From: Thermoplasmata archaeon
GTDB taxonomy: Archaea; Thermoplasmatota; Thermoplasmata; Halarchaeoplasmatales; Halarchaeoplasmataceae
DNA: 64,000 nt
Direction: 5' to 3'
NCBI GenBank assembly: GCA_003552585.1
Contig: PUNK01000039.1
Span: forward strand, 7,021 to 71,020
Part shown: one piece after another, positions 287 through 36,646 of the stretch
Layout of the letters: each line of letters begins with the position of its first letter
Position numbering within the stretch: position 1 is the first letter of the stretch
Position numbers and translations under genes: made by a program
The notes under the pieces: generated by a model
Seen by the model: only the letters and a program-made list of their open reading frames with translations
Databases searched by the model: none
What the model was told of the DNA's origin: nothing

Positions 287-2034
287 AGATAATGCTGGGA
301 TATGCATCATGCGGTATTGCCGCAGGGGCAGCGGAGGTAGAAGAGGTTTTGAAAAAAGAGATAAATAAGAGTGGGATTGAAGTTGATTACAGGAGGGTAG
401 GATGTGTGGGCATGTGCCACAACGAACCTATAATCGAGATCGAGGATGATGGTGTAAGATACACTTATGGAAACCTTGAAATCGAAGATGTGAAGAAGAT
501 CGTAGAGGAGCATTTAAAAAAGAGGGAACCATACAGAAAGAAACTCGTTGTCCCGCCTGAGCAGGAATACGATTACTTCTCCAAACAGAAAAAGATCGTT
601 CTACAAAATAGCGGAGTGATCGATCCCGAAGATATAGACGATTACATTCAGAAAGGGGGATATGATGCCCTTCAGAGAGTTTTGAATGAGATGGAACCCG
701 GAGATGTGATCGAAGAGATCAAAAACAGTAAGCTCCGTGGGAGAGGAGGTGCTGGCTTTCCGACAGGATTGAAATGGCAGTTCGCTGCTGACACACCATC
801 TGATAAGAAATACATAATATGTAACGCCGACGAAGGCGATCCCGGTGCATTCATGGATCGATCCGTTCTTGAAGGAGACCCACACGCGGTGCTCGAGGGG
901 ATGGCTATAGGCGCGTTCGCAACCGGGGCCGATGAAGCGTACATTTACTGCAGGGCCGAATATCCTCTGGCGATCCGTAGATTGAACATAGGGATAAAAC
1001 AGGCAGAGCAGAGAGGATACCTCGGTGATAACATATTGGGTACTGATTTTTCTTTTCATGTTCACGTAAAAGAGGGAGCAGGGGCTTTCGTGTGCGGTGA
1101 AGAAACCGCACTCATGCACTCGGTGGAAGGAGAAAGAGGCATGCCCAGACCAAGACCTCCCTTCCCAGCACAAAAAGGTCTTTTCGGTAAGCCTACGAAC
1201 ATAAATAACGTAGAGACCTGGGCTAACGTACCTTGGATCATAAATAATGGAGCTGAAGCATATCACTCGATAGGAACTGAAAAAAGTGGAGGTACCAAAG
1301 TTTTCGCGCTTGCGGGGAAGATCAGAAGAGGAGGATTGGTGGAAGTTCCCCTGGGCACCACCCTCCGTGAAGTTATCTTCGATATCGGTGGGGGGATAGA
1401 AGGTGAGGCAAAATTCAAAGCGGTACAATTAGGCGGACCCTCCGGAGGTTGTCTGCCGGAAGAATATTTGGATACGCCTGTTGATTACGAAACTCTCACC
1501 GAAGCCGGTGCTATAATGGGGTCTGGCGGGATGGTGGTCATGGATGAAAACGACTGTATGGTAAATGTGGCCCATTATTTCCTAGATTTCACCCAAAAAG
1601 AATCATGCGGAAAGTGTACTTTCTGCAGGGTAGGAACGAAGAGATTGCTCGAGATGCTTGAAAGGTTCTCAAAGGGTGAGGGGTCGGAGGAGGAAATCGA
1701 ACGTTTGAGATCCCTAGCATCGAAGATAAAGTCTTATTCTCTGTGCGGACTGGGCCAAACCGCACCAAATCCAGTACTTACAACTTTAAGGTACTTCTAC
1801 GAAGAGTACGATGAGCATATCAAAGATCAGCACTGTAGGGCGAGGATCTGTCGTCCTATAATCACATACACCATCACCGATGACTGTGTAGGATGTACAA
1901 GATGTGTGGAAGAGTGCCCAGCTGATTCCATCCAAGGTGAAAAAGGTTCAAAACATGTGATCCAGCAAGGTATGTGTGTAAAGTGCGGTGCTTGTTTCGA
2001 GGTGTGTCCGGTTAAAGCAGTGGAGGTGGAATAG
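283..2034 (+). CDS. NuoF/HoxF/HydB-type NADH- and FMN-binding Fe-S subunit
   Basis: 'GRGGAGFPTGLKW' FMN/NADH motif and 'ESCGKCTFCR' 4Fe-4S motif. C-terminal 2x ferredoxin motifs 'CVGCTRCVEECP' and 'CVKCGACFEVCP'. There is also an N-terminal thioredoxin-like Cys domain. Confidence 0.9.
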   Translation: MKIMLGYASCGIAAGAAEVEEVLKKEINKSGIEVDYRRVGCVGMCHNEPIIEIEDDGVRYTYGNLEIEDVKKIVEEHLKKREPYRKKLVVPPEQEYDYFSKQKKIVLQNSGVIDPEDIDDYIQKGGYDALQRVLNEMEPGDVIEEIKNSKLRGRGGAGFPTGLKWQFAADTPSDKKYIICNADEGDPGAFMDRSVLEGDPHAVLEGMAIGAFATGADEAYIYCRAEYPLAIRRLNIGIKQAEQRGYLGDNILGTDFSFHVHVKEGAGAFVCGEETALMHSVEGERGMPRPRPPFPAQKGLFGKPTNINNVETWANVPWIINNGAEAYHSIGTEKSGGTKVFALAGKIRRGGLVEVPLGTTLREVIFDIGGGIEGEAKFKAVQLGGPSGGCLPEEYLDTPVDYETLTEAGAIMGSGGMVVMDENDCMVNVAHYFLDFTQKESCGKCTFCRVGTKRLLEMLERFSKGEGSEEEIERLRSLASKIKSYSLCGLGQTAPNPVLTTLRYFYEEYDEHIKDQHCRARICRPIITYTITDDCVGCTRCVEECPADSIQGEKGSKHVIQQGMCVKCGACFEVCPVKAVEVE

Positions 2035-4986: not shown

Positions 4987-6010
4987 AAAAAGGATGTTCG
5001 AAGAAAACCGATACAAAAAAAGAAGTGATAAAAGAAACCTGGTCGCCACTTGGAGTGACCGAGAACTTTTAGATGGTGAACTTGAAGAGGCATTCACGGT
5101 CATATTTAGGACCCGCGGCTGTGGATGGGCACACCGGATGGGTTGTACAATGTGCGGTTACCATACTGATACCAATCCAGACATATCTAACGAAGATATA
5201 TCCAAACAACTAGAGGAAGCACTCTCCCGGTACAACGGTGAGACGATCGTTAAATTATACACTTCAGGTAGTTTCCTCGATCCCAAGGAGATCCCCAAAG
5301 ACCTTGCACAGAAAATCATCTCTTCCTTCGACTGCTCGAAAACAGTCATCGAAAGTAGGCCGGAATATGTAAATCAGGAGGTACTAAAGGATCTTAAAGT
5401 AGACGAAAAGAGTTTAGAGATAGCCATAGGTTTGGAGTCTGCTGACGACTTCGTCTTAAAAAATTGTATAAACAAAGGGTTCACGTTCAAAGATTATATG
5501 TCTGCTAGAAAGATTGTTCTAGATGCTGGATGCGGATTGCGGACATATCTCCTTCTTAAACCACCGTTTCTTACAGAGAAAGAGGCTATGGATGATCTGA
5601 TCAAGTCCATAGAGAGGATATCCCATAAAAGAAATCTGATTTCCATAAACCCAGTTAATGTCCAAAACAACAGCTTCCTTGAGCATCTTTTCAGGCTCGA
5701 TATGTACAGACCGCCATGGCTTTGGTCACTATTAGAGATTTTGAAAGAGATAAAAAGCACAAATAATATAGTAATATCTCGGGCAGGATTGGGGGGTAAA
5801 AGAGGAGCTCACAACTGCGGTGGATGTGATAAAGAGATAGTAGATCTCTTGGATGATTTCAACCGGACCAGAGATATCGAAAAGCTATCTCGAGGCATAC
5901 CTGAATGCGACTGTAAAAAAATATGGAGATCTGATAATTGGATCGAACCGGCCTTACACTTTAGGGGAAGTCCTGAGATACTAAGCAACAGATACGCTGG
6001 CTACGTCTGA
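4970..6010 (+). CDS. Radical SAM protein, archaeosine-biosynthesis RaSEA-like family
   Basis: 'RTRGCGWAHRMGCTMCGY' is a Cx7Cx2C cluster motif. The ~346 aa size and 'KLYTSGSFLD' resemble the archaeal RaSEA-type family; this is from memory, not a search. Confidence 0.55.
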   Translation: MKMDLRKRMFEENRYKKRSDKRNLVATWSDRELLDGELEEAFTVIFRTRGCGWAHRMGCTMCGYHTDTNPDISNEDISKQLEEALSRYNGETIVKLYTSGSFLDPKEIPKDLAQKIISSFDCSKTVIESRPEYVNQEVLKDLKVDEKSLEIAIGLESADDFVLKNCINKGFTFKDYMSARKIVLDAGCGLRTYLLLKPPFLTEKEAMDDLIKSIERISHKRNLISINPVNVQNNSFLEHLFRLDMYRPPWLWSLLEILKEIKSTNNIVISRAGLGGKRGAHNCGGCDKEIVDLLDDFNRTRDIEKLSRGIPECDCKKIWRSDNWIEPALHFRGSPEILSNRYAGYV

Positions 6011-8193: not shown

Positions 8194-10862
8194 CAGGAAC
8201 CACCCCTTCTCTTAGTAGCTTTGAACTCTGTAACTATATCGTCCATGTCAACAGCCTTACCCGACTTACTTCTCATCGGGTCAATCCCATCTTCTCCAAA
8301 TTCAAACTGGATAACGGTATCATCAGTGTTCTTGACGGACCCGTCGTCGTAAACCATAAGGTCCTCCATCGCGTGTATGAGACGCCTCTGCATGTAACCT
8401 GATCGGCTTGTTCTGACAGCCGTGTCTACAAGTCCTTCACGTCCTGCCATGCTGTGGAAGAAGTATTCTACGGGTTGAAGTCCCTCTTTGTAGGATGACT
8501 TAACGAATCCTCTAGCCTCCGCACCGAGTGAACCTTTCTTAAAGTGAGACAATGTTCTTTCTTCATATCCTCGACTGGGGCGCTCTCCTCTGATAGCCTG
8601 TTGTCCAAGAGCAGCAGCCATCTGGCTCAAGTTCAACATACTCGCCCTAGCACCTGTCCTGGCCATAACAACCACGTTGTTTCCAAGACCAAGATACTTA
8701 CTGGCGATCTTGCCTGCGTTGTCTCTTGCCTTTCCGAGTTCCTGCATAGCCCTTACTTCAAGTGTTTCCTCTACAGTTCTACCGGGCATCTGTTCGAGAT
8801 TCCCCTCAACATATTCCTCTGCAAGTCGCTTCACCTTACCTGCAGCTTTGTCCAAGACCTCGTCTATTTGTCTCATGGCTGCTCTTGGCACATCTTCATC
8901 CTTTATAGAAGTCGTGAAACCTCGAAGGGTGATAACTCCCAATGAGATCGTTGTTATCTTATCTATAAACTCTCTAGCTTTGTCGGTTCCCATGTCTCGA
9001 GCTATCTTATCGATAATCTCACCTTGGAACGCTCCAATGCCTCTTTCATCTATGGTTCCGGTTTTTAGTTGACCGTCTTCTATAGATACATAAGCATCTT
9101 CAGGACATTCTTTTTCCTTACATTCTTTACAAGTTTCACATATGGAAGACCTAAATTCCAGGTTCAGGTCATCAGGTAAAAAATGGCTGAAGATATCTTT
9201 TCCATACCACATCTTTTCTCCTTCGACCTCAACGGAGGGTGGGAAATTCTCAGTTTCTAGATTTGAGAATATACTTACCACTTCCCTCCTACTGAAAAGA
9301 GGATTATCGTGGGTCAAGAAAAACAGACCGCTTATATGGTCCTGAGTAGCACCGATTATAGGGCCACCAAATCTAGGAGACAATATGTTCTCCTGTACCC
9401 TCATTATCACCTTAGCTTCTGCACGTGCTTCCTCGCTCTGAAGCACATGAAGGTTCATCTCGTCACCATCAAAATCTGCGTTGTAAGGAGGGCACACAGC
9501 GAGATTTAACCTGAATGTCTTACCTGGAACTATCTTGACCTCATGAGCCATCATGGACATCCTGTGGAGTGATGGCTGTCGGTTGAAGAGAACTATGTCT
9601 CCTTCTTTCAAACCCCTCTCAACGGTGAATCCTACTTCTATCTTCTCAGCGACATTCTCCGCATTGGTTTCAGTAACTCGTATCCGTCTTCCATCTGGCC
9701 TGAAGATGTAGTTTGCACCAGGCAGATATTTACCTCTCTCAGTTGGATTCGGGCCTCTAGCAACCATCTCTTTAATTCTATCGATATTTTCAGGTGTAAC
9801 TCTTATAGGTACGGTCAACTCTCGTGCTGCTTTTTTCGGAACACCCACCTGATTTATGGACAACCAAGGGTCCGGTGAAATCACTGTCCTAGACGAAAAA
9901 TTTACTCTCTTACCGCTGAGATTTTGACGGAACCTTCCCTCTTTACCTTTCAACCTCTGTATCAAAGTTTTTAACGTCCTGCCACTACGGTGCCTTGCAG
10001 GTGGGATTCCTGATGTTTGATTGTCAAAGTATGTGTTCACATGGTATTGTAAAAGGTCCAAAAGATCCTCTACGATCAGCTGAGGTGAACCCACATCACG
10101 ATTCTCTCGCAATCTTTGATTTATACGAAGTATGTCCACGAGTTTGTGGGTAAGATCGTCTTCAGAGCGATCGCCGGATTCCAAAGTTATCGAAGGTCTA
10201 ACTGTAACTGGAGGAACTAAAAGAACCGATAAAACCATCCATTCCGGTCTAACTACCTCCGGGTTAAGACCTAAGGGGATCAAGTCCTTGTCGGGTATCC
10301 TTTCCAGTCTTGCTCTGACCTCCTTAGGGGTTAGTTTGGTGTTATCTTCTCTGAAAGTTGTAGGCTTATCTAGCATTATCTTTCTCTGCTCGGACTTGCA
10401 GTGAGGACATACCTTGTTCTTCCTCGCAGCCTTTGAAATCTCCTTAGCTAGTGCCCTCTGATCTAGGGGGTCTCCACCTATCTTTTTCAGCTGTTCAAGT
10501 TCCTCTATATAATGATCCCTCTCTTCATCCTCCATCAATACTCTGCCGCATTCGCTACAGGATGACCGGAGAAGCTTCTTGATCTCTTTCACATACCCTA
10601 CATGAATCACGGGCATGGCTAGTTCGATGTGGCCAAAATGGCCGGAACACTGATCGACCCGCCCACCACATGTTTTACATCTCAAACCGGGCTCGATAAC
10701 ACCTAGATGGGTGTCCATCAATCCCATCTCGATGGGGAATCCGTCATCATCATATGTATCGGGTGTTATTATTTTAGTAGCGGAAAGTTTCCTTATCTCC
10801 TTTGGTGACATGTAGGCAAATTTGATAGATCCTATCCTCTTCGTAATTCCTTTATTCATCAT
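8193..10862 (-). CDS. rpoA1: DNA-directed RNA polymerase subunit A'
   Basis: Catalytic '[12 protein letters not shown]', N-terminal Zn motifs 'CKTCGG...CSGHFGH', 889 aa. Confidence 0.97.
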
Positions 10863-20225: not shown

Positions 20226-20350
20226 AAACCAACCCTTTTCTAAACTTTCGAGGAATAAATTTAAGTATCTTCTAGTCTATTATATACTTCCTGTTTAATG
20301 ACTACAATATAACCCACTGAAGGATAGACCAAATCAATAAGAGGTAATAT

Positions 20351-22990
20351 ATGATATTGAAAGAAATCCAGATATCTAGGAAGAGATTTCAAAAAAATCC
20401 CAATATCTACTCAATGCTACCTGTTATGGTTGTAGATGTTGATTTTGAACCGCAAATGAGAGAGGTATCAAATAAAGAGATAGAAGATTATTTGGGAAAA
20501 ATAATGCCTTCATTAAAGGATTATATACATACCCTAAATCTTTCTGACGATTTTAAGAAAGCTGAAGATGATGTATCACATCTAGAGCTCATGGGAAAAA
20601 TAACGTTAGCACTTCAAAATATGGCAGGCTCAGAGGTTACTTTCAGTACAACTCGGAAAATTGAAGAGGACTCATATCATCTAGTCATACAATATAAAAT
20701 ATCCGATGTGGCCTCTAAAGCATTGGATTACTCTTTAGAGATTATGGACAGTATAATAGATGAAAAATACAAGGAATCAGAAGAAAATATCGATCGATGG
20801 ATCTCCGAGCTAAAAGATATATATGAACGTAAAAAAATGGGGCCAAGCACAGAAGCTATCATCTCTGCTGCTGAGTCGAGAAACATCCCTTATGACCGAA
20901 CACATTCAAAATACAGCCTTTTTTCTTTAGGTTATGGAAAAGGCAGAAAACGGATTTGGGGGCCAGTCACCTCAGAAACATCGATGATAGGTGCAGATGC
21001 TGCAACAGACAAAGAGTTAACAAAAAAAATTCTTTCTGAATCTGGAATTCCTGTTCCATACGGTGGTGTTTGTAACGATCAAGATGATGCTGTAAAAATG
21101 GCCAATGAAATCGGTTACCCCGTGCTTGTGAAGCCTCTAAAAGGAAATCATGGTCGAGGAGTAATAGGTGAATTAGAAAACGAGAACGATCTGAGAAAAG
21201 CCTACGAAATCAGTAGAGATTTTGGTAACGATATCCTTGTTGAAGAATTCATCGAAGGTAAAGATTATCGCTTCCTTATCATAGACCACAAAGTTGTAGC
21301 TGTAGCAGAGAGGATACCCTCACATGTGGTGGGAGACGGGGAATCTACGATCATCGAATTGGTAGAAAAGAAAAACGAAGATCCAAGACGAGGTGATGGA
21401 CACTCGGATATACTCACAGAGATACGATTAGGGGCCGAAGAGATGTTTCATCTAGAACTACTAGGATTAGAAAAGGAATCCATTTTACCCGAAGGAAAAC
21501 TAATTTATCTGAGAACTGGTGGAAATCTAAGCACAGGAGGTACAGCCATTAACGTCACTCAGTCAGTCAACAGATGTCTTATTGATGAGGTGGAGAGGGC
21601 GAGTAGGGCGATAGATATGGATATATTAGGAGTGGATGTTATTGCACGGGATATTACAAAACCTCCTGAAAAAGCAGGATGGTATGTTATTGAAATAAAT
21701 GCAAGCCCGGGTTTGAGAATGCATATCGCACCTACAAATGGCAAACCAATACCTGCTGGCGAACACCTCATCGAATACCTTTATCCTGATGGAGATGGAA
21801 GGATCCCTATAATATCGATTACCGGTACCACCGGAAAGACTACTACTAGTAGAATGGTGGAATGGATATTTAGAAACGCTGGATATCGGACGGGTATGGC
21901 AGTAACAGGAGGGATCTATTTTGATGGAGAATGCGGTCTAAGAGGAGATACCACCGGTCCGTGGAGTGCTGGTGTAGTTCTAAATAACCCTTTAGTCGAA
22001 ATTGCGGTGTTGGAAACCGCAAGAGGAGGGATGATAAGGGATGGCCTTGGATTTGATGAGTGCCAAGTTAGTGTTCTGACCAACATCAAAGAGGACCATC
22101 TCGGTCTAGATGGTATAGAAAACCTTGATGATCTTTTTCGGGTAAAATCTTTGATATTGAAAGCAACCTCAAAAGAAGGAGATTGTGTTATAAATGCTAG
22201 GGACGATTTTGCTAGGAAAGCTTTAGAAAGGTCTAACGGTAAACCAATCCTTTTTTCCAGTCTTAAAGATGATAGAACTAAAAAATTCATTTTAGAGGGA
22301 TATAGGGTGCTTGTTTACACTGATAAAACTCTTGAATTGTACAAAGACAATGAACTGCAATCCAAATGGAAGGTGGAAGATAATCCATGGTTAGCATTGG
22401 ATATTCCTATGCACATCGAAAATACACTGGCTGCACTAGCAGCATCTAATTCTACGGGCATACCGATAAAAGAAGGACTTGGTGCATTGAAAGAGTTCAA
22501 AATGGACGAAGAGATGAATCCAGGAAGGATGAATATGTTTGAATGTGGTTGTCAATATTTTATACTAGATTATGCTCATAATCCAATAAGTATAGAGGCG
22601 GTCGGTAAACTTACTCATAAGATTTCTAATGGGCAAAGGGCTATCGTTTTAGCAGAGCCGGGCGACAGAGGAGATGATTTTTTAATGAACTGTGGATCAA
22701 CAGCTGAAAAGTGGTTTGATCGGATCTATATCACTGAGAATCCTGATATCCGTAGAGGAAGAGAGTATGGTGAAATATCCGAGATAATAAGAAAAGGAAC
22801 TGAAAATGGTAAGGTTATAATGGATATGGACAAAGCTATCAAGAGAGCGATTAAAGATTCATCTAGCGGAACAACGATCGTGTTTGCAGGACTAGATATA
22901 GGACGGGACTACCTAAAAAAGAGCTGTAGGTCAGAAGATCCAGATGGAAAAATAAGACCTTTGAGTTTTCAAGATGTTCTCAATGGATAA
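20351..22990 (+). CDS. cphA: Cyanophycin synthetase (N-domain, ATP-grasp and Mur-ligase-like domains)
   Basis: 879 aa. ATP-grasp region 'YPVLVKPLKGNHGRGV ... EEFIEGKDYRFLII'. Mur-ligase P-loop 'ISITGTTGKTTTSRM'. 'DYAHNP' near the C-terminus. A cyanophycinase gene is adjacent. Confidence 0.8.
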   Translation: MILKEIQISRKRFQKNPNIYSMLPVMVVDVDFEPQMREVSNKEIEDYLGKIMPSLKDYIHTLNLSDDFKKAEDDVSHLELMGKITLALQNMAGSEVTFSTTRKIEEDSYHLVIQYKISDVASKALDYSLEIMDSIIDEKYKESEENIDRWISELKDIYERKKMGPSTEAIISAAESRNIPYDRTHSKYSLFSLGYGKGRKRIWGPVTSETSMIGADAATDKELTKKILSESGIPVPYGGVCNDQDDAVKMANEIGYPVLVKPLKGNHGRGVIGELENENDLRKAYEISRDFGNDILVEEFIEGKDYRFLIIDHKVVAVAERIPSHVVGDGESTIIELVEKKNEDPRRGDGHSDILTEIRLGAEEMFHLELLGLEKESILPEGKLIYLRTGGNLSTGGTAINVTQSVNRCLIDEVERASRAIDMDILGVDVIARDITKPPEKAGWYVIEINASPGLRMHIAPTNGKPIPAGEHLIEYLYPDGDGRIPIISITGTTGKTTTSRMVEWIFRNAGYRTGMAVTGGIYFDGECGLRGDTTGPWSAGVVLNNPLVEIAVLETARGGMIRDGLGFDECQVSVLTNIKEDHLGLDGIENLDDLFRVKSLILKATSKEGDCVINARDDFARKALERSNGKPILFSSLKDDRTKKFILEGYRVLVYTDKTLELYKDNELQSKWKVEDNPWLALDIPMHIENTLAALAASNSTGIPIKEGLGALKEFKMDEEMNPGRMNMFECGCQYFILDYAHNPISIEAVGKLTHKISNGQRAIVLAEPGDRGDDFLMNCGSTAEKWFDRIYITENPDIRRGREYGEISEIIRKGTENGKVIMDMDKAIKRAIKDSSSGTTIVFAGLDIGRDYLKKSCRSEDPDGKIRPLSFQDVLNG

Positions 22991-23783
22991 TATTTCTTTC
23001 AACAAAATCATAGACTATATTTTCTATCAAGATATGGACTATTATCCCTTCTACAGAGATGGCCTGTCCGACCTCAACCTCAGAAACGTTTGAATGATGT
23101 ATCTGTTTTCCATCGACGATGACCACATTACCGCTGCCGATCACCTTAAAAGTATGTTCCTTGAAATCCCAAATAATACCTGTGTCCTCTCCAAGACCAA
23201 CTCCAAGTACACCTGGATTTTCAGCAACAGCATGAAATAACCTTGGAAACCTTCCTCTAGCAGAAAAGTGGGTATCAATGATAGTGTTATCTATGAAATT
23301 CAATCCTTGAGTGAGTTCTATCTCACCTGAAAGAAGGGCATTTTCAACAAGACCATAGGATATCATTGTTGCTGTCATACATACTGCACCAGCACTCGTA
23401 CCGGCAAGCACTGCACCTTCCATGAACCTTTCTCTTATAGCTTCTAAAACCTTAGTTCCACCTAACAAAGAGGTTAGTCTTAACTGGTTACCACCTGAAA
23501 AGAAGAAACCATCCGATTCATAAGTTAATGAAACAAGATCTTCATCGCTTGCATCCTTCCTTTGAAGAGGATCTATGACATCTGTTTCGACCCCAAATTC
23601 ACTGAAAATGCTAGAGTATATTTTTCCAGTACGAGGAGGGTTACCGCTAGCAGAGGGGATTATTCCTATCTTAGGTTTGCCTTCTGAAACCTTTTTGACC
23701 TCATCTATAAAAGCTTTATAAAGAGGTTCCTCTAAAGACATCTCTACATTTCCCCCCATACTTATGATTCTTCCTCGTGACAT
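22980..23783 (-). CDS. cphB: Cyanophycinase (peptidase S51)
   Basis: 'IGIIPSAS', 'FFFSGGNQLRL', nucleophile motif 'AGTSAGAVCM', 'IIDTHFSARGR' and 'GVGLGEDTG'. The gene is convergent with cphA and the tails overlap by 11 nt. Confidence 0.85.
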   Translation of the reverse strand: MSRGRIISMGGNVEMSLEEPLYKAFIDEVKKVSEGKPKIGIIPSASGNPPRTGKIYSSIFSEFGVETDVIDPLQRKDASDEDLVSLTYESDGFFFSGGNQLRLTSLLGGTKVLEAIRERFMEGAVLAGTSAGAVCMTATMISYGLVENALLSGEIELTQGLNFIDNTIIDTHFSARGRFPRLFHAVAENPGVLGVGLGEDTGIIWDFKEHTFKVIGSGNVVIVDGKQIHHSNVSEVEVGQAISVEGIIVHILIENIVYDFVERNIIH

Positions 23784-24020
23784 TTATACTACCTTTTTAT
23801 GACTTGCTATGGCATTTAACAACTAGTGTATAAATGTTTTACTCTAAAAAAGGAAAACTACACCAAAATGTAATGAAAAAGGGGATTAAAACCTTCTAAA
23901 GCTCTAAATAACTAGGGTTACTTTCTGTTTTCTTATTTATCAAATAAAAAACGTGCCAAGGAATCAAAGATTCCACTTACTTTTTAATCTTCTTCTCCAT
24001 CACTCATAATATGTAAAAAG

Positions 24021-24106
24021 CGCCGAGGAGGAGATTCGAACTCCTGTGGCGCAACGCGCCAGTGGCTCTCGAGGCCACCGCCTTGGCCGGGCTAGGCTAC
24101 CTCGGC
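24021..24106 (-). tRNA. tRNA-Ser (anticodon CGA), class II, no intron
   Basis: Reverse complement is GCCGAGGTAGCCTAGCCCGGCCAAGGCGGTGGCCTCGAGAGCCACTGGCGCGTTGCGCCACAGGAGTTCGAATCTCCTCCTCGGCG. The anticodon loop is CTCGAGA. Confidence 0.9.
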
Positions 24107-24193: not shown

Positions 24194-26209
24194 TTGCAGC
24201 CTGACATGAGGTCACTAGTGATCCTAATAATGTTAACCTTGTTAATATCTCCCGTACTGTTATCTGAGTCCGAAGAAAATAAAATTCAGATAGAGGAGAT
24301 ATATTACAATCAGGGTCCTGGCTGCGATTACCTCGTTCTAAAGAATCATGGAAAGGCAACTTTCCTTGACGGTTGGACTTTATCAAATGGATACGGAGAG
24401 TTGATTCTCGATGGAATCTATTTTGCAAAGGGAGAAACGTTAACTATTTCTGAGAATAAACATGACTTTTATGATGTTTGGCATGAAGGGCCTGATCTTA
24501 CCTGGGAAGAAGAACTAGAGATCGATGGACGATTTTATCTTGCAGCTAGTAGAGGAAAACTTTTACTAAAAGAGGATGGAGAATTGAGGGATTCAGTTTA
24601 CTATGGGGAGGTAGAAACAGGAGATGAATGGGCTGGAGAGCCGAAGGAACTCTGCTGGTCTGGTGAATATGCCAAGCGCAGGTCCTACGGATACTCTGCT
24701 GAAGATTGGAGCTGGGAAAGACGTTGGTTCGTTGGGCAGACAAATCTCTCAGCTCCTGAATTCGGGTTGGAAGGTGACATGTCAGTATTCACCTCTCCAG
24801 ATACATCTATGAAAGTTTTAGATGATTTTATTCATAACGCTGAGAACCGATTATTGGTCAGCACGTATCATCTCGATGGTTATCATATAGCAGAGAGATT
24901 ATCGAACATCTCTAAACAAGGGGTGGAAGTGAAGGTGATGATCGATGGCAGTCCGGTTGGAGGAATTTCCACACATACGAGAGCATCTCTATACGAAATA
25001 CATAGAGGGGGAGGAACTATTCTTACAGTTGGTGGAGGTGAATATTCCCCATATAGACATCTTCATGGAAAATACATGTTAGCCGATAACAGCAGTGTTC
25101 TTATATCTTCAGAAAATTTTGGAGAAAATGGATTCCCGAAAGATAACACGAGGGGGAACAGGGGATGGGGGGTCGTAATTCATGATGAAAACGTATCAAA
25201 CTACTACAGAAACATCTTTTTTGAAGACCTGAAGCACGCTCATAAATTAGTCCCTGAACCTGTAGAAGAGATAACTTCAGAGATTCCAAGTCATATCGGT
25301 TCATACAGACCTAAATTTCAACAACTTCATGTAGAATCAAGAGGGAAAATAACACCAATACTCTCTCCTGACACATCTATGTCCAGGGATACATTGTTTG
25401 GTATGTTTGATGAAGCGGAGGATCATATATATGTCCAACAGTTCTATATCGATCCATGGAGTCATGGTGATAATCCATATGTTGAATCTTTGATTGAAGC
25501 TGCAGAAAGAGGAGTGACCGTCAGGATATTACTTGACGCAAAATGGTACAATATAGATAATGCTACAGGCTACAACCACATCATTGTGGATGAGTTAAAT
25601 ACGAGGGCTAAAGAAAAAAATTTACCATTGGAAGCGCGTCTATCCAGTAGAGTACATGGTCTGAACTCTCTCCACAATAAAGGTGCAGTAGTTGACGGCA
25701 AAAGTACATTGATTTCAAGTATAAATTGGAATTCGAACTCTGTTCTCCAGAACCGGGAAGTGGGCCTTATATTGGAAAACGAAAAAGCTGCTGATTTTTT
25801 TGAAGACGTATTCACACAAGACTGGTACGAAACTCGATCTGGACCAATCGCTGATGCAGGGAGAAGCAGAGAGGTAGCCATCAATGAATTAGTTTCTTTC
25901 GACGGAACATCAAGTTGGCATAAAAGCAACATAACAACTTACAGATGGGATTTGAATGGTGACGGTAGGTTTGATAAAGAAGGATGCGTTGTTGACTGGG
26001 CATATAGGGAAACTGGTGAATATACAGTGGTACTACAGGTTATTGACGAGGAAGGGAGAGTAGATGTAGATTCAACAACAGTTCAAGTTAATCAAAAACC
26101 ACATGCCTACGAGATAGATGAAGATGAATTAGTTTGGATAATTTGGGCAGGTGTAATTTTGTTGATGATCTTCTTCATGTACCTGTCTTACACGGTTTCT
26201 AAGAATTAG
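24194..26209 (+). CDS. Secreted phospholipase D/nuclease-superfamily protein with two HKD motifs, an N-terminal lamin-tail-like domain, a C-terminal PKD domain and a TM anchor
   Basis: HKD motifs 'HGKYMLADNSSVLISSENF' and 'HNKGAVVDGKSTLISSINWN'. PKD-like 'YRWDLNGDGRFD...GEYTVVLQVIDEEG'. Signal-like N-terminus and a C-terminal hydrophobic helix. Confidence 0.8.
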   Translation: MQPDMRSLVILIMLTLLISPVLLSESEENKIQIEEIYYNQGPGCDYLVLKNHGKATFLDGWTLSNGYGELILDGIYFAKGETLTISENKHDFYDVWHEGPDLTWEEELEIDGRFYLAASRGKLLLKEDGELRDSVYYGEVETGDEWAGEPKELCWSGEYAKRRSYGYSAEDWSWERRWFVGQTNLSAPEFGLEGDMSVFTSPDTSMKVLDDFIHNAENRLLVSTYHLDGYHIAERLSNISKQGVEVKVMIDGSPVGGISTHTRASLYEIHRGGGTILTVGGGEYSPYRHLHGKYMLADNSSVLISSENFGENGFPKDNTRGNRGWGVVIHDENVSNYYRNIFFEDLKHAHKLVPEPVEEITSEIPSHIGSYRPKFQQLHVESRGKITPILSPDTSMSRDTLFGMFDEAEDHIYVQQFYIDPWSHGDNPYVESLIEAAERGVTVRILLDAKWYNIDNATGYNHIIVDELNTRAKEKNLPLEARLSSRVHGLNSLHNKGAVVDGKSTLISSINWNSNSVLQNREVGLILENEKAADFFEDVFTQDWYETRSGPIADAGRSREVAINELVSFDGTSSWHKSNITTYRWDLNGDGRFDKEGCVVDWAYRETGEYTVVLQVIDEEGRVDVDSTTVQVNQKPHAYEIDEDELVWIIWAGVILLMIFFMYLSYTVSKN

Positions 26210-30087: not shown

Positions 30088-33000
30088 TCACTCTTTTATT
30101 ATACGGGTTTTTTTCCCTTCTTCTTTTTCTTGTACAGCCCTTTGTTTTTTTGTGATAGACCATTTTTTCTTCTCCCTTTTTATACTCCTCTGCTTCTTTA
30201 AAGCAGGCAAAACCATTTCCTCCTCATCTTCCCTCTCTTCAACCTCGCCAACGATATCTATCTCGGGTGGTTCTTCGAGTTCATCATCAGTCTTCTCATC
30301 AAACATCTCTTCTTTGACCACCCTGTGTTTCTTCTTCTTATCCTCCTTTTTCTTCATCACTGGTAATTTTCGCTTTTCAATCGAAGACCTATCACCTTTC
30401 TTTGTCAATACAGTAAGTTCTTTGAAATCTTTTTCATGATATTCCCCAGAGATATGTTCTTGATGATTGATATCATCTAGCCAGTTCTCACCATCCATAT
30501 GTTCTCCATCGTCTGACAATATATTACCTTTCTGAACCACGTTATAGATGAGGAATGAAGACATTATCAAGATGATAATCAATAATATGATATCAGTCCA
30601 ATTACTCATCAATCCTGATGGTGGTGGTTCTACAAAAAACGTCTCGGATGTAGTCCTAACAGTGATATTTTCACCATGTGGATTATAGTCTTCTGCAACA
30701 AAATAGTAGGTATACTCCCCTGGATCAAGATGTGTTTCAAAATAATAGAGTTTACCCTCTGAATAGTTAGTATCTTCTACATCAACCTCTTTGAGCGAAT
30801 AATGGTCTCCATCTATGACTATTTCAAGAAATGTAGGGGGGTATCCATCAGGGTCCGTGTAATTAACTACCCAACGAACCCGGGTGGGCTGGTATGTAAC
30901 GTTCATTTCTATTTCCTCTATGATGGGTGGATTATTGACAGGAGTGACCACAACACTGAAGGGGAAAACAGTATCCCAGTCATCAATGATAGTCACGTTA
31001 AAGGTCATGTTCACTATGCCGGAGAAATATCTTTCCGGTACAAAATCTACACCACCTTCATGGATCCTAACATCTATTGGTTCGTTTCCTTCAACACCGG
31101 TTACTTTAGAACCGGGGGGTAACAACGACTCTAAATCAAATCCGAAGATCTCATCGTTTTCTTCCATAGTGATGTTTAAATAGCTGGCGTAGGTAATAAT
31201 GCTGGACCGATCTTTCCAGATCCTTTCTTCTTGTATATATGAGTCTACTATAGTCACGTTAGATCTTAAAGAATAGAGATGGTATCTGCCACCCAATACA
31301 CTCGTTCCTCTGACCACGATCTCTGCATCCTCACATCTTATTCCGTGTATATCGTTACCAAATATAAGGTTCTGTTCCATCAATGGTGAGCTTTTTTCAA
31401 CATGAACTCCAAAGGGTTCATTATCCTGAATATTGTTATTACTAAACCAAAGGGAAGATGAACTCCATATTCCGCCACCAATATTTGAACGTATTAGATT
31501 ATTGATGACTATCCCTTTAGCCTCTTCCAATCTTAACCCTACCCCCTGATTATCCCTGATCTCGTTCGAGGATATATTCAATTGTTTTGCTCCAAATATC
31601 ACCACACCTGCTCCACTATTATTACCAATATAATTATCATACATGTTTAGATGCTTTCCAGAGAATCTTATTCCTTGTGCTCCGTCTGTAATAAGATTAT
31701 GTTTAAGATATATCTCCGAACTGTTGGAAAAGCGCATACCCCATACTTGTGAATCAGACAGTTCATTATTATCAATACTTGCATTTGATTGAGAAGAGAG
31801 AATTGCGTATCTACACTCCGTAAAAACATTCCCAGATATACTTGTATCACTCGCTTCGAGAGTGATCCCTCTAGAACATGTATCGAATTTGTTATCAACT
31901 ATACGGGTCTCTGAGCCAATAGTGTTGATGGCAGATCCTAAGATCCATTCGAATTCGTTATCTTCTATCAGATGTTCACCATCTTCTAGAATAACAGCCG
32001 AATTTGAGAGATCGAAAAATTCATTCTCCAAAATCTCAGTACGCCCTCCTTTTGCTTCAACACCGGTGTTACCTGAAAAAATATTTCCAATTATTGATGC
32101 AGTGCTAGAGGTAGTACTTATGGCGGCCCCTTGCTGGGAATTAAACTTGTTTTCCTTAATCAACACAGAGGATTCGCGTGTAGTCAATGCAGTATAAAGA
32201 TATCCTTCGAAGATGCTGTTTCTAATAGTTGGCGAAGAAGAATATATCTCCATTATCTTGTTACCACCAAAAAAGTCAGTTTGCCTGATCGAAACATGAT
32301 CCGATTTGATTATGACATCAGTCTTTGCATCCTCACATCCGCTCCCTAATACAACACTGTTCTCGATCAAAACTTCGCTTCCGTCCTCAAAGGTTAAGCC
32401 AATTCCGGACCCCCTACCAAGATCAGCAATATATTCTTCAGGCCTGGCATGAGGTATATCTAAGTCCCATGTATCTTCCTCCCCCATCCTTACCCAGTAA
32501 CCTCTACCAGGCTTAAGGTATTCATCTGCATCTAGTGATCTACGTCCTAATGGAGTTTGCTCTTCGATCTCATCTAAATTATCCCAAACTGTGGAAAAGG
32601 TTTCTTCTGCAGTGAGGGTAACATCCGATGGAAATGAGACCATATTCCATCCTTCAAAAAGTGTAGTCTCCTGAAACTCTGGAATCAAGCCATCAATCTC
32701 CAAGACAATATGGTCGGTGATATTTACAAGTACACCCATCGTACTGTCAATATTTTTTAAAGTGTTGAAATGTTCCGCCCTGGAAGGTTTGTAACTTTCA
32801 TACTCATCCGAAGATGCATTATAATACCAAGCCGAATCGTAACTACCTTCTAAGGGAGATAAAACATTTCTAACCGATTTGTTCTCATAGTAAAATGGAA
32901 AAGATAAAAGGTTTAAACCTTCATTCAATTCTAGCCTGATATCTCTTCGAAGATGTTCTTCATAGCTAGAAATTTTGGAGTCCCTCATCTGAAATACACC

Positions 33001-33258
33001 TTCACTCCTAATTCTGTAGGAGTTTTCGGCCGTATTATTAAGTACTAAGCTAACATTATCTAGAGTAAGGGTCCCTTGTACATCTATACCTCCCTCTAAG
33101 ATTATCGATTTGTCAGACAAAATCACATCCTCACCAGGTGGTACTACGATATCTTCTTCAAATAGTTCCTCTGAACCTGTGCCTAAAGGTAGTACCAAGA
33201 CCAACGAAAGGATTGCTATGCATAAGAGGGTTTTACATCGTTCCATTTTTAACCTCAT
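30088..33258 (-). CDS. Large surface protein with parallel beta-helix (PbH1/NosD-like) repeats, a TM helix and a charged cytoplasmic tail
   Basis: Signal-like N-terminus. There are many 'N.I..N...GI' type repeats ('NEIRDNQGVGLRL', 'NLIRSNIGGGIW', 'NNIQDNEPFGVHV'). TM segment 'IILLIIILIMSSFLIY'. The tail is K/E/D-rich. Confidence 0.65.
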   Translation of the reverse strand: MRLKMERCKTLLCIAILSLVLVLPLGTGSEELFEEDIVVPPGEDVILSDKSIILEGGIDVQGTLTLDNVSLVLNNTAENSYRIRSEGVFQMRDSKISSYEEHLRRDIRLELNEGLNLLSFPFYYENKSVRNVLSPLEGSYDSAWYYNASSDEYESYKPSRAEHFNTLKNIDSTMGVLVNITDHIVLEIDGLIPEFQETTLFEGWNMVSFPSDVTLTAEETFSTVWDNLDEIEEQTPLGRRSLDADEYLKPGRGYWVRMGEEDTWDLDIPHARPEEYIADLGRGSGIGLTFEDGSEVLIENSVVLGSGCEDAKTDVIIKSDHVSIRQTDFFGGNKIMEIYSSSPTIRNSIFEGYLYTALTTRESSVLIKENKFNSQQGAAISTTSSTASIIGNIFSGNTGVEAKGGRTEILENEFFDLSNSAVILEDGEHLIEDNEFEWILGSAINTIGSETRIVDNKFDTCSRGITLEASDTSISGNVFTECRYAILSSQSNASIDNNELSDSQVWGMRFSNSSEIYLKHNLITDGAQGIRFSGKHLNMYDNYIGNNSGAGVVIFGAKQLNISSNEIRDNQGVGLRLEEAKGIVINNLIRSNIGGGIWSSSSLWFSNNNIQDNEPFGVHVEKSSPLMEQNLIFGNDIHGIRCEDAEIVVRGTSVLGGRYHLYSLRSNVTIVDSYIQEERIWKDRSSIITYASYLNITMEENDEIFGFDLESLLPPGSKVTGVEGNEPIDVRIHEGGVDFVPERYFSGIVNMTFNVTIIDDWDTVFPFSVVVTPVNNPPIIEEIEMNVTYQPTRVRWVVNYTDPDGYPPTFLEIVIDGDHYSLKEVDVEDTNYSEGKLYYFETHLDPGEYTYYFVAEDYNPHGENITVRTTSETFFVEPPPSGLMSNWTDIILLIIILIMSSFLIYNVVQKGNILSDDGEHMDGENWLDDINHQEHISGEYHEKDFKELTVLTKKGDRSSIEKRKLPVMKKKEDKKKKHRVVKEEMFDEKTDDELEEPPEIDIVGEVEEREDEEEMVLPALKKQRSIKREKKKWSITKKQRAVQEKEEGKKTRIIKE

Positions 33259-35860: not shown

Positions 35861-36646
35861 ATGATGAGCGCTAAAAGAAGGGGGATCCACATCACTACAG
35901 ACGGTTTTGAATACGATCGTGTGATAGTACCCATAATGACCGAATACCCTGTGGAAGAACTAGTAATTTTACGAAATACTGATAAATCATATACTGGGGC
36001 CTGGAGATTAGCTGGACATTTTGTAGAAAAAATTAAAGACAGTCCCATTAAGACCAGGGTTATAGAAACAAACATTTATGATTTTAATGAAGTTCTCAAA
36101 ACAACCAGAAAACTGCTGGACGAATATTCTAAAATGAATCTGCCCATATATATAAATATCTCTTCTATGCCAAAGTTGAGTTTGGTTGCCGTAATAACAG
36201 CTGCACTTTTAAAAAAAGAAAGATCAGAAATAGAAGTCTTTTACGTCAAGCCTGAAGAGTATTTGATACCAAGGATATTGGACTGTATCGCAAGGATTGG
36301 AGATGACGAATGTGCAATCGAAGAGCTAAAAGAGATCGGTCAGAGATTTAAAACCAGAGGAGGGGGGGCAGGTATGGTCGATTCAATCAAGATACCCTTA
36401 TTTCCAATCACTCAAATTACAGATTTAGATAAGAATATATTATCTATTTTAGCTGATACAGGAGGTACAGAATCAATCAGCCAGCTAGTGGAAATACTCA
36501 ATAAGGATCGAAAGGACGAAGTAAAAAGATCAACAGTTCAATATAGATTAGATAGGCTCGAAAAATATGGCCTGGTAATAGGAAAGAGAGAAAATAAACG
36601 TTTGAAACTGGAATTAACAAATGTGGGTAGCGCATATCTTTTTTAA
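35861..36646 (+). CDS. Csa3-like regulator: N-terminal CARF-like Rossmann domain plus C-terminal winged HTH
   Basis: The pattern 'IHITTDGFEYDRVIVPI...ELVILRN', 'IYINISSMPKLSLVAVITAAL' and C-terminal 'ILSILADTGGTESISQLVEIL...RLDRLEKYGLV' matches the Csa3 layout as I recall it. Confidence 0.5.
   Translation: MMSAKRRGIHITTDGFEYDRVIVPIMTEYPVEELVILRNTDKSYTGAWRLAGHFVEKIKDSPIKTRVIETNIYDFNEVLKTTRKLLDEYSKMNLPIYINISSMPKLSLVAVITAALLKKERSEIEVFYVKPEEYLIPRILDCIARIGDDECAIEELKEIGQRFKTRGGGAGMVDSIKIPLFPITQITDLDKNILSILADTGGTESISQLVEILNKDRKDEVKRSTVQYRLDRLEKYGLVIGKRENKRLKLELTNVGSAYLF

What the first reader, a model, noticed from the sequence alone, without database searches (positions are those of the whole stretch)
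20351..23783. Cyanophycin synthetase plus cyanophycinase pair in an archaeal chromosome
The 879-aa ORF has the full CphA layout: N-domain, ATP-grasp, and a Mur-ligase-like domain with P-loop GTTGKTTT. It converges on a 267-aa S51 peptidase with the cyanophycinase motifs GGNQLRL and GTSAGA, and the 3' ends overlap by 11 nt. As far as I know, cyanophycin (multi-L-arginyl-poly-L-aspartate) metabolism is a cyanobacterial and bacterial trait, rarely if ever characterised in Archaea. The flanking genes are unambiguously archaeal. This is therefore either an ancient or recent horizontal acquisition or an unrecognised archaeal N/C storage capacity. No isoaspartyl dipeptidase is adjacent. An amidinotransferase/DDAH-like arginine-modifying enzyme lies about 31 kb away (54560-55369), and a link to it is pure speculation.
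Basis: partly seen in the sequence, partly recalled or inferred. Interest (0 to 1): 0.7.

Follow-up and report, generated by a model that had tools for sequence, protein, structure and literature searches.

The report
Archaeal cyanophycin synthetase and cyanophycinase pair
A salt-loving archaeon of the Thermoplasmatota carries intact genes for making and breaking down cyanophycin, a nitrogen-storage polymer usually called bacterial, and its relatives carry the same gene pair, although nobody has yet shown the polymer in any archaeon.

Summary
ORF 20351-22990 (+, 879 aa) is a full-length CphA1-type cyanophycin synthetase. ORF 22980-23783 (-, 267 aa) is a cyanophycinase-type S51 peptidase. The two converge and overlap by 11 nt.

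The contig is archaeal on both sides, with no composition break, and an independent assembly reproduces the left junction. RpoA' places the organism with the halophilic Thermoplasmatota 'Ca. Saliniplasma' and 'Ca. Natronoplasma'.

Both enzymes belong to archaea-only clades with 100% bootstrap support. There are 26 CphA clusters and about 63 CphB clusters, only 36-47% identical to bacterial proteins. The two genes are adjacent in five lineages I inspected. This points to an old, ameliorated acquisition kept across a lineage, not recent transfer or mis-binning.

The catalytic and substrate residues checked in the two synthetic domains and in the peptidase are present (two substitutions, E215 to D in CphA and Q173 to T in CphB). 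The N-domain zinc site that lets most CphA1s make their own primers is missing, so I predict a primer-dependent enzyme.

This is a new member of a known kind. NCBI's pipeline already names the relatives, and a 2018 preprint noted such genes in Heimdallarchaeia. I found no paper on this lineage and no experiment in any archaeon. Caveat: one structurally near-identical bacterial protein is deposited as 'pseudo-CphB'.

The parts
20351..22990 (+). cphA: CphA1-type cyanophycin synthetase, 879 aa
   Evidence: TIGR02068 scores 854.1 bits against a cut-off of 850. phmmer to solved SuCphA1 7lg5 gives E=2e-161 over residues 15-845. The AF2 model has pLDDT 91, and its Foldseek TM-score to TeCphA1 7wae is 0.88 over 878 columns.
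20351..20830 (+). N domain (about aa 1-160; boundary approximate, from alignment to SuCphA1). It lacks the Cx19HxxEH zinc-peptidase motif.
   Evidence: Pfam PF18921 matches residues 27-136. The motif columns read H/E/G/K in place of C/H/E/H, whereas 66 of 72 aligned CphA1s have CHEH. The only low-confidence stretch of the model is residues 60-73, the loop that carries C59 in SuCphA1.
20831..21805 (+). G domain (about aa 161-485; ATP-grasp, adds Asp to the backbone)
   Evidence: K261, H267, R307 (=R309), R321 (=R323), N392 (=N394), S394 (=S396), G454 and R456 (=G456/R458) are all present. E215 is replaced by D216 (residue roles from PMC9427784).
21806..22987 (+). M domain (about aa 486-879; Mur-ligase-like, adds Arg to the Asp side chain), with both Mcore and Mlid
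   Evidence: Present are the P-loop TGTTGKTTT with K496 and T497, T519, E555, D582-H583, N615, D618, DYAHNP 740-745 and GDR 771-773. Pfam finds Mur_ligase_M at 490-644 and Mur_ligase_C at 725-847.
22980..23783 (-). cphB: cyanophycinase-type S51 serine peptidase, 267 aa, with no N-terminal extension
   Evidence: TIGR02069 scores 208.9 bits against a cut-off of 126.6. Q100, S130, D170, H172, R176, R178, R181 and E199 are present. The AF2 model has pLDDT 95.7, with TM 0.92-0.93 to Synechocystis CphB 3en0/7uqw. Alignment to 7uqv starts at residue 2, which supports the 267-aa start over the 259-aa public gene call.
22980..22990 (.). 11-nt overlap of the two convergent 3' ends
   Evidence: Read directly from the sequence. 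A relative, L083, also has overlapping convergent ends, at 10612-10658.
20226..20350 (+). Intergenic region upstream of cphA, with A/T-rich TATA-like stretches and GAGGT 6 nt before the ATG (inferred promoter and ribosome-binding site)
   Evidence: Sequence read. This is inference only. The bacterial sigma-70 scan is not informative for archaea.
23784..24019 (-). Intergenic region upstream of cphB, between tRNA-Ser and cphB, with a TTTATA element and AGGT before the ATG (inferred promoter)
   Evidence: Sequence read. tRNA-Ser lies at 24020-24106 (-). No att-like repeat of the tRNA was found.

Best explanation
The locus encodes a working intracellular cyanophycin cycle in a halophilic Thermoplasmatota archaeon.

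Synthesis: CphA extends a short cyanophycin primer. Its ATP-grasp G domain phosphorylates the C-terminal backbone carboxylate and adds L-Asp. Its Mur-ligase-like M domain then phosphorylates the new Asp side chain and attaches L-Arg. The N domain holds the polymer but lacks the zinc endopeptidase site that lets most CphA1s cut their own primers. The enzyme should therefore be primer-dependent, like Tatumella CphA1.

Degradation: CphB is a cytoplasmic Ser-His-Glu S51 peptidase that releases beta-Asp-Arg dipeptides. A dipeptidase encoded outside this window must finish the breakdown.

Regulation: the two genes converge with separate upstream regions, so synthesis and breakdown can be regulated independently.

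Origin: the pair was acquired long ago, most likely from bacteria. It has since been inherited as a unit within the 'Ca. Halarchaeoplasmatales'-like lineage.

Shown here: gene integrity, fold, catalytic residues, archaeal context, clade structure and gene linkage. Inferred: enzyme activity, primer dependence, physiological role, and the direction and date of transfer.
For: Identity and integrity: curated HMMs pass. Both proteins align over their full length to solved structures. The models are confident and superpose on CphA1 (TM 0.88) and CphB (TM 0.93). Nearly every residue shown by mutagenesis to matter in TeCphA1/SuCphA1 is present in the window, and most are invariant across 26 archaeal homologues. 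The exception is E215, which is Asp (D216) here and in 20 of the 26.

Type: the M-domain P-loop and Mlid are present, so this is CphA1 rather than CphA2. The TM-score to CphA2 is only 0.55.

Archaeal host: RpoB/A'/A'', RaSEA, thermosome, RLI, SMC, TgtA and an archaeal HPT lie on the same contig. RpoA' is 78-86% identical to 'Ca. Saliniplasma', 'Ca. Natronoplasma' and other Thermoplasmatota, then drops to 70% for Methanomassiliicoccales.

Not chimeric or recent: GC is 0.393/0.397 and GC3 0.314/0.302, against window medians of 0.409/0.365. The RSCU distance of cphA (0.247) is among the lowest in the window. The tetranucleotide correlation is 0.945 against a mean of 0.908. An independent Logan assembly of SRR490150 gives the same PyrK, coiled-coil, PPIase, cphA, cphB order. 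No att repeats were found.

Lineage trait: the archaeal CphA clade of 26 has 100% bootstrap support, with the window basal to a 22-member core at 97%. The archaeal CphB clade also has 100% support with the window basal, so the two placements agree.

Linkage: cphA and an S51 gene are adjacent in the window, L082, L083/L084, L087 and L091, each with different flanking genes.

Primer dependence: the Cx19HxxEH motif is absent. The motif's role is taken from PMC9262961.
Against: There is no biochemical or physiological evidence for cyanophycin in any archaeon. TIGR02068 passes by only 4 bits, and the sister model NF010623 falls short at 846.8 bits against a cut-off of 877.

The solved structure most similar in sequence to the S51 protein is deposited as 'P. 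cellulosolvens pseudo-CphB'. From my memory of that paper's abstract, the protein was inactive on cyanophycin even though the active-site residues I compared are present in its sequence. Sequence and fold therefore do not prove activity.

No isoaspartyl dipeptidase, CphZ or obvious arginine-catabolic operon lies in the window. In one relative (L085/L086) cphA has no adjacent S51 gene. My trees are neighbour-joining, midpoint-rooted and have no outgroup, and halophile amino-acid bias may inflate the archaeal branch. The donor and the direction of transfer are therefore unresolved.
Confidence: 0.75

Rival explanations
1. The genes are related to cyanophycin enzymes but act on something else. The S51 protein would be a 'pseudo-CphB'-type enzyme with a different substrate. 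The synthetase might make a variant polymer with other side-chain amino acids, or serve a purpose other than nitrogen storage in a high-salt cytoplasm.
For: The best sequence match among solved structures is 7uqv, deposited as pseudo-CphB. The archaeal clades are only 36-47% identical to bacterial proteins. TIGR02068 barely passes. Several relatives carry two tandem S51 paralogues with differing motifs, which suggests sub-functionalisation.
Against: In the tree, 7uqv sits inside the bacterial group rather than with the archaeal clade. The window protein is equally distant from 7uqv (37%) and from the active Synechocystis CphB (36%). The Asp-recognition residues R321, N392, S394 and R456 and the whole M-domain catalytic set are conserved. 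Persistent adjacency of the S51 gene to cphA across lineages that are only about 40-50% identical argues for a shared substrate.
Confidence: 0.13
2. The region is a recent horizontal transfer or a mis-assembled or mis-binned bacterial fragment, and says nothing about archaeal biology.
For: Cyanophycin genes are overwhelmingly bacterial. A tRNA-Ser gene, a common integration site, lies directly beside cphB. The nearest RpoA' relatives do not share gene order on this side of the rpo operon.
Against: The 64-kb window carries archaeal core genes on both sides. Codon usage, GC3 and tetranucleotide usage are typical of the window. No att repeats were found, and no integrase matched among the ORFs scanned. 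An independent assembly reproduces the junction. The nearest homologues of both proteins come from archaeal MAGs, with none closer than 40% in bacteria.
Confidence: 0.03
3. The pair mainly serves to scavenge cyanophycin or its fragments released by cyanobacteria and other bacteria in hypersaline mats and sediments, rather than to store the cell's own nitrogen.
For: Archaeal cyanophycinases have been proposed to degrade environmental cyanophycin (Culexarchaeia). More archaeal CphB clusters than CphA clusters are seen (about 63 against 26).
Against: The S51 protein has no N-terminal extension and aligns to a solved structure (7uqv) from residue 2, so it is most likely cytoplasmic. It is paired with a complete synthetase. 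Cyanophycin polymer is not known to be imported (notes that no export process is known).
Confidence: 0.06
4. The genes are decaying relics that are no longer functional.
For: The N-domain zinc site is lost. The window's CphA is the most divergent member of its clade, averaging 43% identity to the others.
Against: Both reading frames are intact. All G- and M-domain and peptidase catalytic residues are kept. The models are highly confident. Loss of the N-domain motif occurs in about 17% of CphA1s, including the active Tatumella enzyme.
Confidence: 0.03

Closest known systems
Cyanobacterial CphA1 (Synechocystis sp. UTEX2470, PDB 7lg5/7lgq; Trichodesmium erythraeum, 7wae)
   Same: The three-domain N-G-M layout and the length (879 aa) are the same. 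Identity is 33-34% over the whole chain, with TM 0.86-0.88. All G- and M-domain catalytic and Asp-binding residues are present.
   Different: The host is archaeal. The protein sits in a separate clade with 100% bootstrap support. E215 is Asp. The N-domain Cx19HxxEH zinc site that makes SuCphA1 primer-independent is absent.
Tatumella morbirosei CphA1 (PDB 7lgn), the characterised primer-dependent CphA1
   Same: It lacks all four residues of the Cx19HxxEH motif and still makes cyanophycin when given primer. The window enzyme is predicted to behave the same way.
   Different: It is a gammaproteobacterial enzyme with lower structural similarity to the model (TM 0.73-0.75 full length). The motif was lost independently.
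Synechocystis PCC 6803 cyanophycinase CphB (PDB 3en0, 7uqw)
   Same: The S51 fold matches (TM 0.92-0.93). The Ser, His and Glu positions and the Gln/Asp/Arg-x-Arg-xx-Arg pocket residues align. Both are intracellular.
   Different: Identity is only 32-36%. Q173 is Thr in the window protein. In this window cphB converges on cphA.
Pseudobacteroides cellulosolvens 'pseudo-CphB' (PDB 7uqv)
   Same: It is the best sequence match among solved structures (E=2e-49, 36-37% identity, TM 0.92) and has the same motifs.
   Different: Its depositors call it a pseudo-cyanophycinase. From memory of the abstract, it has no activity on cyanophycin; the paper is not held. It groups with bacterial sequences, not with the archaeal clade. 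I could not check whether it is linked to a cphA gene.
Cyanophycin genes reported in Heimdallarchaeia MAGs (bioRxiv 10.1101/385732) and seen here in locus L012
   Same: An archaeal MAG carries cphA converging on an S51 gene, next to an archaeal Cdc6/Orc1 gene.
   Different: That CphA branches among bacterial sequences, not with the Thermoplasmatota clade, so it is a separate acquisition.
Culexarchaeia cyanophycinase (PMC9723716)
   Same: It is an archaeal S51 cyanophycinase homologue inferred from MAGs.
   Different: It was reported as degradation only, with no synthetase discussed, and was interpreted as use of external polymer.

Membership tests
Cyanophycin synthetase 1 (CphA1) | Single chain with an N domain, an ATP-grasp G domain and a Mur-ligase-like M domain, aligned over its full length | tested here: met
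   Pfam domain order. TIGR02068 aligns residues 8-845 to model positions 2-846. 7lg5 aligns over residues 15-845. TM 0.88 to 7wae over 878 columns.
Cyanophycin synthetase 1 (CphA1) | Score above the curated family cut-off | tested here: met
   TIGR02068 scores 854.1 bits against 850, which is marginal. The related NF010623 scores 846.8 bits against 877, which is not met.
Cyanophycin synthetase 1 (CphA1) | G-domain catalytic and Asp/primer-binding residues (K261, H267, R309, R323, N394, S396, G456, R458, E215 in Te/SuCphA1 numbering) | tested here: met
   All are present in the window (K261, H267, R307, R321, N392, S394, G454, R456). E215 is conservatively replaced by D216. Most are invariant in 26 archaeal homologues: position 267 is H in 25 of 26, position 321 is R in 22 of 26, and the E215-equivalent position is D in 20 and E in 6.
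Cyanophycin synthetase 1 (CphA1) | M-domain P-loop, Mg ligands and lid module (absent from CphA2) | tested here: met
   K496, T497, T519, E555, DH 582-583, DYAHNP 740-745 and Mur_ligase_C 725-847 are present. TM to CphA2 is only 0.55.
Primer-independent CphA1 subset | N-domain Cx19HxxEH zinc endopeptidase motif | tested here: not met
   The columns read H, E, G, K. No Cys is present in the loop, and the loop has low model confidence. The motif's role comes from PMC9262961. The motif is not required for CphA1 membership; 83% of CphA1s have it.
Cyanophycin synthetase 1 (CphA1) | ATP-dependent synthesis of multi-L-arginyl-poly-L-aspartate | not testable with these tools
   This needs an enzyme assay or polymer extraction.
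Cyanophycinase (CphB, peptidase family S51) | S51 fold and a score above the curated cut-off | tested here: met
   TIGR02069 scores 208.9 bits against 126.6. PF03575 matches. TM 0.92-0.93 to 3en0/7uqw.
Cyanophycinase (CphB, peptidase family S51) | Ser-His-Glu triad and pocket residues (S132, H174, E201, Q101, D172, R178, R180, R183 of Synechocystis CphB; residue list recalled from Law et al. 2009) | tested here: met
   S130, H172, E199, Q100, D170, R176, R178 and R181 align. Q173 is Thr. S130, H172, Q100, D170 and the three Arg are invariant, and E199 is nearly invariant, in 53 homologues.
Cyanophycinase (CphB, peptidase family S51) | Intracellular form (no signal peptide), as opposed to secreted CphE | tested here: inconclusive
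   The protein has no N-terminal extension, and residue 2 aligns to residue 5 of 7uqv. No signal-peptide predictor was available.
Cyanophycinase (CphB, peptidase family S51) | Hydrolysis of cyanophycin to beta-Asp-Arg | not testable with these tools
   Similarity is not sufficient, because 7uqv is deposited as 'pseudo-CphB' despite having the same motifs.
Cyanophycin gene cluster | Synthetase and cyanophycinase genes adjacent, and the adjacency conserved in relatives | tested here: met
   Seen in the window, L082, L083/L084, L087 and L091. The exception is L085/L086.
Cyanophycin gene cluster | Dipeptidase for beta-Asp-Arg (IadA, IaaA or CphZ) in the cluster | tested here: not met
   None of the window ORFs of 150 aa or more that I scanned matches one. 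The 497-aa amidohydrolase at 57880-59373 is Amidohydro_3, not IadA. Many bacterial clusters also lack one.

The most novel reading that the evidence does not exclude
Cyanophycin is a genuine, lineage-wide storage polymer of an archaeal order. A monophyletic, salt-adapted CphA1/CphB pair has been inherited since before the radiation of the halophilic Thermoplasmatota. It may branch as deeply as all sampled bacterial CphA1s rather than nesting inside them. It serves anaerobic, high-salt heterotrophs as a nitrogen reserve and perhaps as an arginine-based energy reserve. If so, this would be the first archaeal non-ribosomal amino-acid polymer store, and a source of synthetases active at molar salt.
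Probability: 0.2. Interest if true: 0.7.

Novelty: new member of a known kind. Interest (0 to 1): 0.45.

Why it matters
Reviews and surveys describe cyanophycin as a bacterial polymer. The large gene censuses searched bacterial genomes only, and a 2025 study states that CphA is specific to bacteria.

This locus and its relatives suggest that the genes for both synthesis and breakdown are widespread in an order of halophilic archaea. They form their own clades and stay linked. If the polymer is really made, three things follow. Archaea gain a nitrogen and carbon reserve not previously attributed to them. Nitrogen budgets of hypersaline and soda-lake sediments gain a new player. Biotechnology gains cyanophycin synthetases from a lineage reported to use the 'salt-in' strategy.

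The window's enzyme is also a natural example of a CphA1 without the primer-generating site, which is useful for testing that model. The claim is directly testable by expressing two genes.

Tried and rejected
It returned no Thermoplasmatota loci and only one Heimdallarchaeota MAG. I obtained archaeal contexts through exact-protein look-ups instead.

(2) I looked for cphA at the same position in the closest RpoA' relatives. Gene order is shared on the rpoA'' side but breaks upstream of rpoB, so presence or absence at this site could not be tested.

(3) I searched for a tRNA-Ser-linked genomic island. Only short chance repeats were found, and no integrase matched among the ORFs scanned.

(4) The sigma-70 promoter and terminator scan gave counts at or near shuffle expectation, and it does not suit archaea.

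(5) The listing of cluster members returned no organism names.

(6) The Haloplasmatales paper by Zhou et al. 2022 and the cyanophycinase/pseudo-CphB paper by Sharon et al. 2022 are not held. I therefore could not check whether the former mentions cyanophycin, or which residues distinguish pseudo-CphB. A text search for SRR490150 found nothing.

(7) I considered and rejected CphA2, because the M-domain P-loop and lid are present. I rejected IadA for the 497-aa amidohydrolase, which is Amidohydro_3 with no isoaspartyl-dipeptidase model hit. I rejected a functional link to the DDAH-like gene, which is 31 kb away with unrelated genes between.

Full report
OBSERVATION

The stop codons are TAA at 22988-22990 and TGA on the minus strand at 22980-22982, so the 3' ends overlap by 11 nt.

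The 879-aa protein matches the curated cyanophycin synthetase model TIGR02068 end to end, with E=1e-256 and 854.1 bits against a cut-off of 850. This is a marginal pass, and the sister model NF010623 falls short at 846.8 bits against 877. Pfam finds the Cyanophycin_syn N domain, a RimK-type ATP-grasp, Mur_ligase_M and Mur_ligase_C in that order.

The 267-aa protein matches the cyanophycinase model TIGR02069 at 208.9 bits against a cut-off of 126.6, and Peptidase_S51.

IS THE CONTIG ARCHAEAL AND COHERENT?

The window carries an unsplit RpoB, RpoA', RpoA'', archaeosine RaSEA and TgtA, a thermosome subunit, RLI, SMC, an archaeal HPT and HypE. These lie on both sides of the pair.

RpoA' is 78-86% identical to a set of proteins from MAGs named 'Candidatus Saliniplasma', 'Candidatus Natronoplasma' and Thermoplasmatota. 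Identity then drops to about 70% for Methanomassiliicoccales. A 2024 review assigns those genera to the halophilic order 'Ca. Halarchaeoplasmatales' (first published as Haloplasmatales), which was characterised from saline and soda-lake MAGs. The window's proteins are moderately acidic, with a median pI of 5.1.

There is no composition break:
- cphA and cphB have GC 0.393 and 0.397, and GC3 0.314 and 0.302. The window medians are 0.409 and 0.365.
- The codon-usage distance of cphA to the other window genes analysed (0.247) is among the lowest.
- The tetranucleotide profile of 20351-23783 correlates with the whole window at 0.945. The mean for windows of this size is 0.908.

An independent Logan assembly of run SRR490150 yields a 6.6-kb contig with the same PyrK, coiled-coil protein, cyclophilin, cphA, cphB order. 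A tRNA-Ser gene lies just upstream of cphB. No repeat of it and no other att-like repeat bounds the region. Mis-binning and recent transfer are therefore very unlikely.

ARE THE ENZYMES INTACT?

CphA aligns to solved Synechocystis CphA1 (7lg5) over residues 15-845 with E=2e-161. I took residue roles from the TeCphA1/SuCphA1 structural papers. The window has:
- G domain: K261, H267, R307 (=R309), R321 (=R323), N392 (=N394), S394 (=S396), G454 and R456 (=G456/R458).
- M domain: K496 and T497 in the P-loop, T519, E555, DH 582-583 and DYAHNP 740-745.
- E215 is conservatively Asp.

Most of these positions are invariant across the 26 archaeal homologues. Position 267 is His in 25 of 26, position 321 is Arg in 22 of 26, and the E215-equivalent position is Asp in 20 and Glu in 6. 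The P-loop and lid module make this a CphA1 rather than a CphA2.

An AlphaFold2 model has pLDDT 91 and pTM 0.88. It superposes on TeCphA1 7wae with TM 0.88 over 878 columns, against 0.55 for CphA2.

One site is degenerate. The N-domain Cx19HxxEH motif is a cryptic zinc endopeptidase that cuts cyanophycin into primers. It is present in 83% of CphA1s and explains primer independence. In the window the four positions read H, E, G, K. Sixty-six of 72 aligned CphA1s, including most archaeal ones, read C, H, E, H. The only low-confidence stretch of the model is residues 60-73, the loop that carries the Cys ligand in SuCphA1. I therefore predict a primer-dependent enzyme like Tatumella CphA1, which lacks the same four residues and is still active.

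CphB aligns to Synechocystis cyanophycinase and keeps Q100, S130, D170, H172, R176, R178, R181 and E199. The one difference is that Q173 is Thr. The residue list for the Synechocystis enzyme is from my memory of Law et al. 2009.

Its model (pLDDT 95.7) superposes on 3en0/7uqw with TM 0.92-0.93. The protein has no N-terminal extension, which fits a cytoplasmic enzyme. The alignment also supports the 267-aa start over the 259-aa public gene call.

A CAVEAT ON CphB

The solved structure closest in sequence is 7uqv (E=2e-49), deposited as 'Pseudobacteroides cellulosolvens pseudo-CphB'. From my memory of the abstract of Sharon et al. 2022 (BBA), this protein is structurally like CphB but inactive on cyanophycin. 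The paper is not held.

It carries the same motifs, so sequence and fold cannot prove activity. In a tree, however, 7uqv falls inside the bacterial group rather than with the archaeal clade. The window protein is equally distant from 7uqv (37%) and from the active Synechocystis enzyme (36%).

RELATIVES AND HISTORY

The best CphA matches (39-46% identity) are 25 clusters. The named ones come from 'Ca. Saliniplasma' or Thermoplasmatota MAGs, and NCBI already labels them cyanophycin synthetase. Bacterial proteins follow at 36-39%. CphB shows the same pattern: about 63 archaeal clusters at 46-59% identity, then bacteria at 40-47%.

I built neighbour-joining trees with 200 bootstraps.
- The archaeal CphA sequences form one clade with 100% support. 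The window branches at the base of a 22-member core with 97% support.
- The archaeal CphB sequences also form a 100% clade with the window at the base.
- The two placements agree, as expected if the pair is inherited together.

Subclades within the archaeal CphA clade are only about 44-53% identical to one another, while RpoA' in the lineage is about 80% identical to the window's. The genes have therefore been in the lineage for a long time.

With midpoint rooting, the archaeal clade lies outside all sampled bacterial CphA1s. No bacterial sister group has support; the next node has 53%. With this method and no outgroup, I treat the donor and direction of transfer as unresolved.

GENE LINKAGE

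- cphA converges on one S51 gene in a 'Ca. Saliniplasma' MAG (L082).
- cphA converges on two tandem S51 paralogues in L083/L084 and L087.
- cphA is divergently adjacent to an S51 gene in the deepest-branching member (L091).
- Flanking genes differ from the window's in every case, although L083/L084 and L087 share upstream genes with each other.
- In one relative (L085/L086) cphA stands alone.

A Heimdallarchaeota MAG (L012) has Cdc6/Orc1, then cphA converging on an S51 gene. Its CphA branches among bacterial sequences, so this is a separate acquisition.

WHAT IS MISSING

None of the window ORFs of 150 aa or more that I scanned matches IadA, IaaA or CphZ. The 497-aa amidohydrolase at 57880-59373 is an uncharacterised Amidohydro_3 protein.

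The gene at 54560-55369 is a full-length DDAH-family protein. It scores below the curated cut-offs and has weaker matches to arginine dihydrolase and deiminase models. At 31 kb away, a link to cyanophycin is speculation.

LITERATURE

The main bioinformatic surveys searched bacterial genomes only. A 2025 pangenomic study states that CphA is specific to bacteria. The Culexarchaeia paper reports archaeal cyanophycinases and says that archaeal cyanophycin degradation has had very little discussion and has no experimental support. A 2018 preprint notes synthesis and degradation genes in two Heimdallarchaeia MAGs.

I found no paper linking cyanophycin to Thermoplasmatota or to Haloplasmatales. I could not read the original Haloplasmatales description.

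VERDICT

The locus is best read as a functional, anciently acquired cyanophycin synthesis and degradation module. It is a shared trait of a halophilic Thermoplasmatota lineage, and the synthetase is predicted to need a primer.

It is a new member of a known kind, not a new kind. It is already machine-annotated in related MAGs, apparently undiscussed in the papers I could search, and untested in any archaeon. Interest is moderate at 0.45. It would surprise those who regard cyanophycin as bacterial, and it can be tested directly by expressing two genes.

Noticed in passing
L083:10612-12353 and L087:7564-9246: Some archaeal relatives carry two tandem S51 paralogues downstream of cphA. The one next to cphA has GGHQLRI and altered residues around the catalytic Glu. 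The distal one has GGNQLRL, like the window's single copy. This may reflect a division of labour.
   Followed up: partly
L012:27-5344: A Heimdallarchaeota MAG contig carries Cdc6/Orc1, then a 958-aa cphA converging on a 302-aa S51 gene. Its CphA branches among bacterial sequences, so this is an independent archaeal acquisition.
   Followed up: partly
Proteins P0007 and P0008 (archaeal CphA relatives): P0008 has HIIQH where the zinc-site motif HxxEH should be, the same E-to-Q change used experimentally to inactivate the site. P0007 has lost the motif altogether. The primer-generating site has therefore decayed more than once in this clade.
   Followed up: partly
window 54560-55369 (-): A full-length DDAH-family (guanidino-modifying) protein scores below the curated dimethylargininase cut-offs, with weaker matches to arginine dihydrolase and deiminase models. 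Its substrate is unknown.
   Followed up: partly
window 60212-61021 (-): A 269-aa ORF matches only the C-terminal half of TnpB (model positions 200-386 of 389). It is probably a truncated IS200/IS605-family remnant. It lies in a stretch with higher GC3 (0.50) than the window median.
   Followed up: no
window 24194-26209 (+): A 671-aa protein with two PLD-like domains, a PKD domain and hydrophobic stretches at both its N and C termini sits directly beyond the tRNA-Ser next to cphB. It has a sub-threshold match to the DISARM DrmC model.
   Followed up: no
window 283-6010 (+) and L088-L090: A NuoF-like gene, a 983-aa GltD/NuoG-like fusion gene and the RaSEA gene sit beside the rpo operon. The same block is conserved next to the rpo operon in the closest relatives, whereas the other side of the operon is rearranged.
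   Followed up: partly
window 30088-33258 (-) and 45158-46957 (-): Two large proteins have only repeat-type matches: one to a right-handed beta-helix/NosD-like domain and one to the GLUG motif. They have no NCBIfam family, and their function is unknown.
   Followed up: no
window 35861-36646 (+): A Csa3/HFX_2341-like CARF-type transcriptional regulator is present, with no CRISPR array or cas genes noted among the ORFs scanned.
   Followed up: no
window 23759-23783 (-): The public gene call for the cyanophycinase is 259 aa, starting at Met9. Alignment to solved structures begins at residue 2 of the 267-aa ORF, which favours the upstream ATG at 23783.
   Followed up: yes
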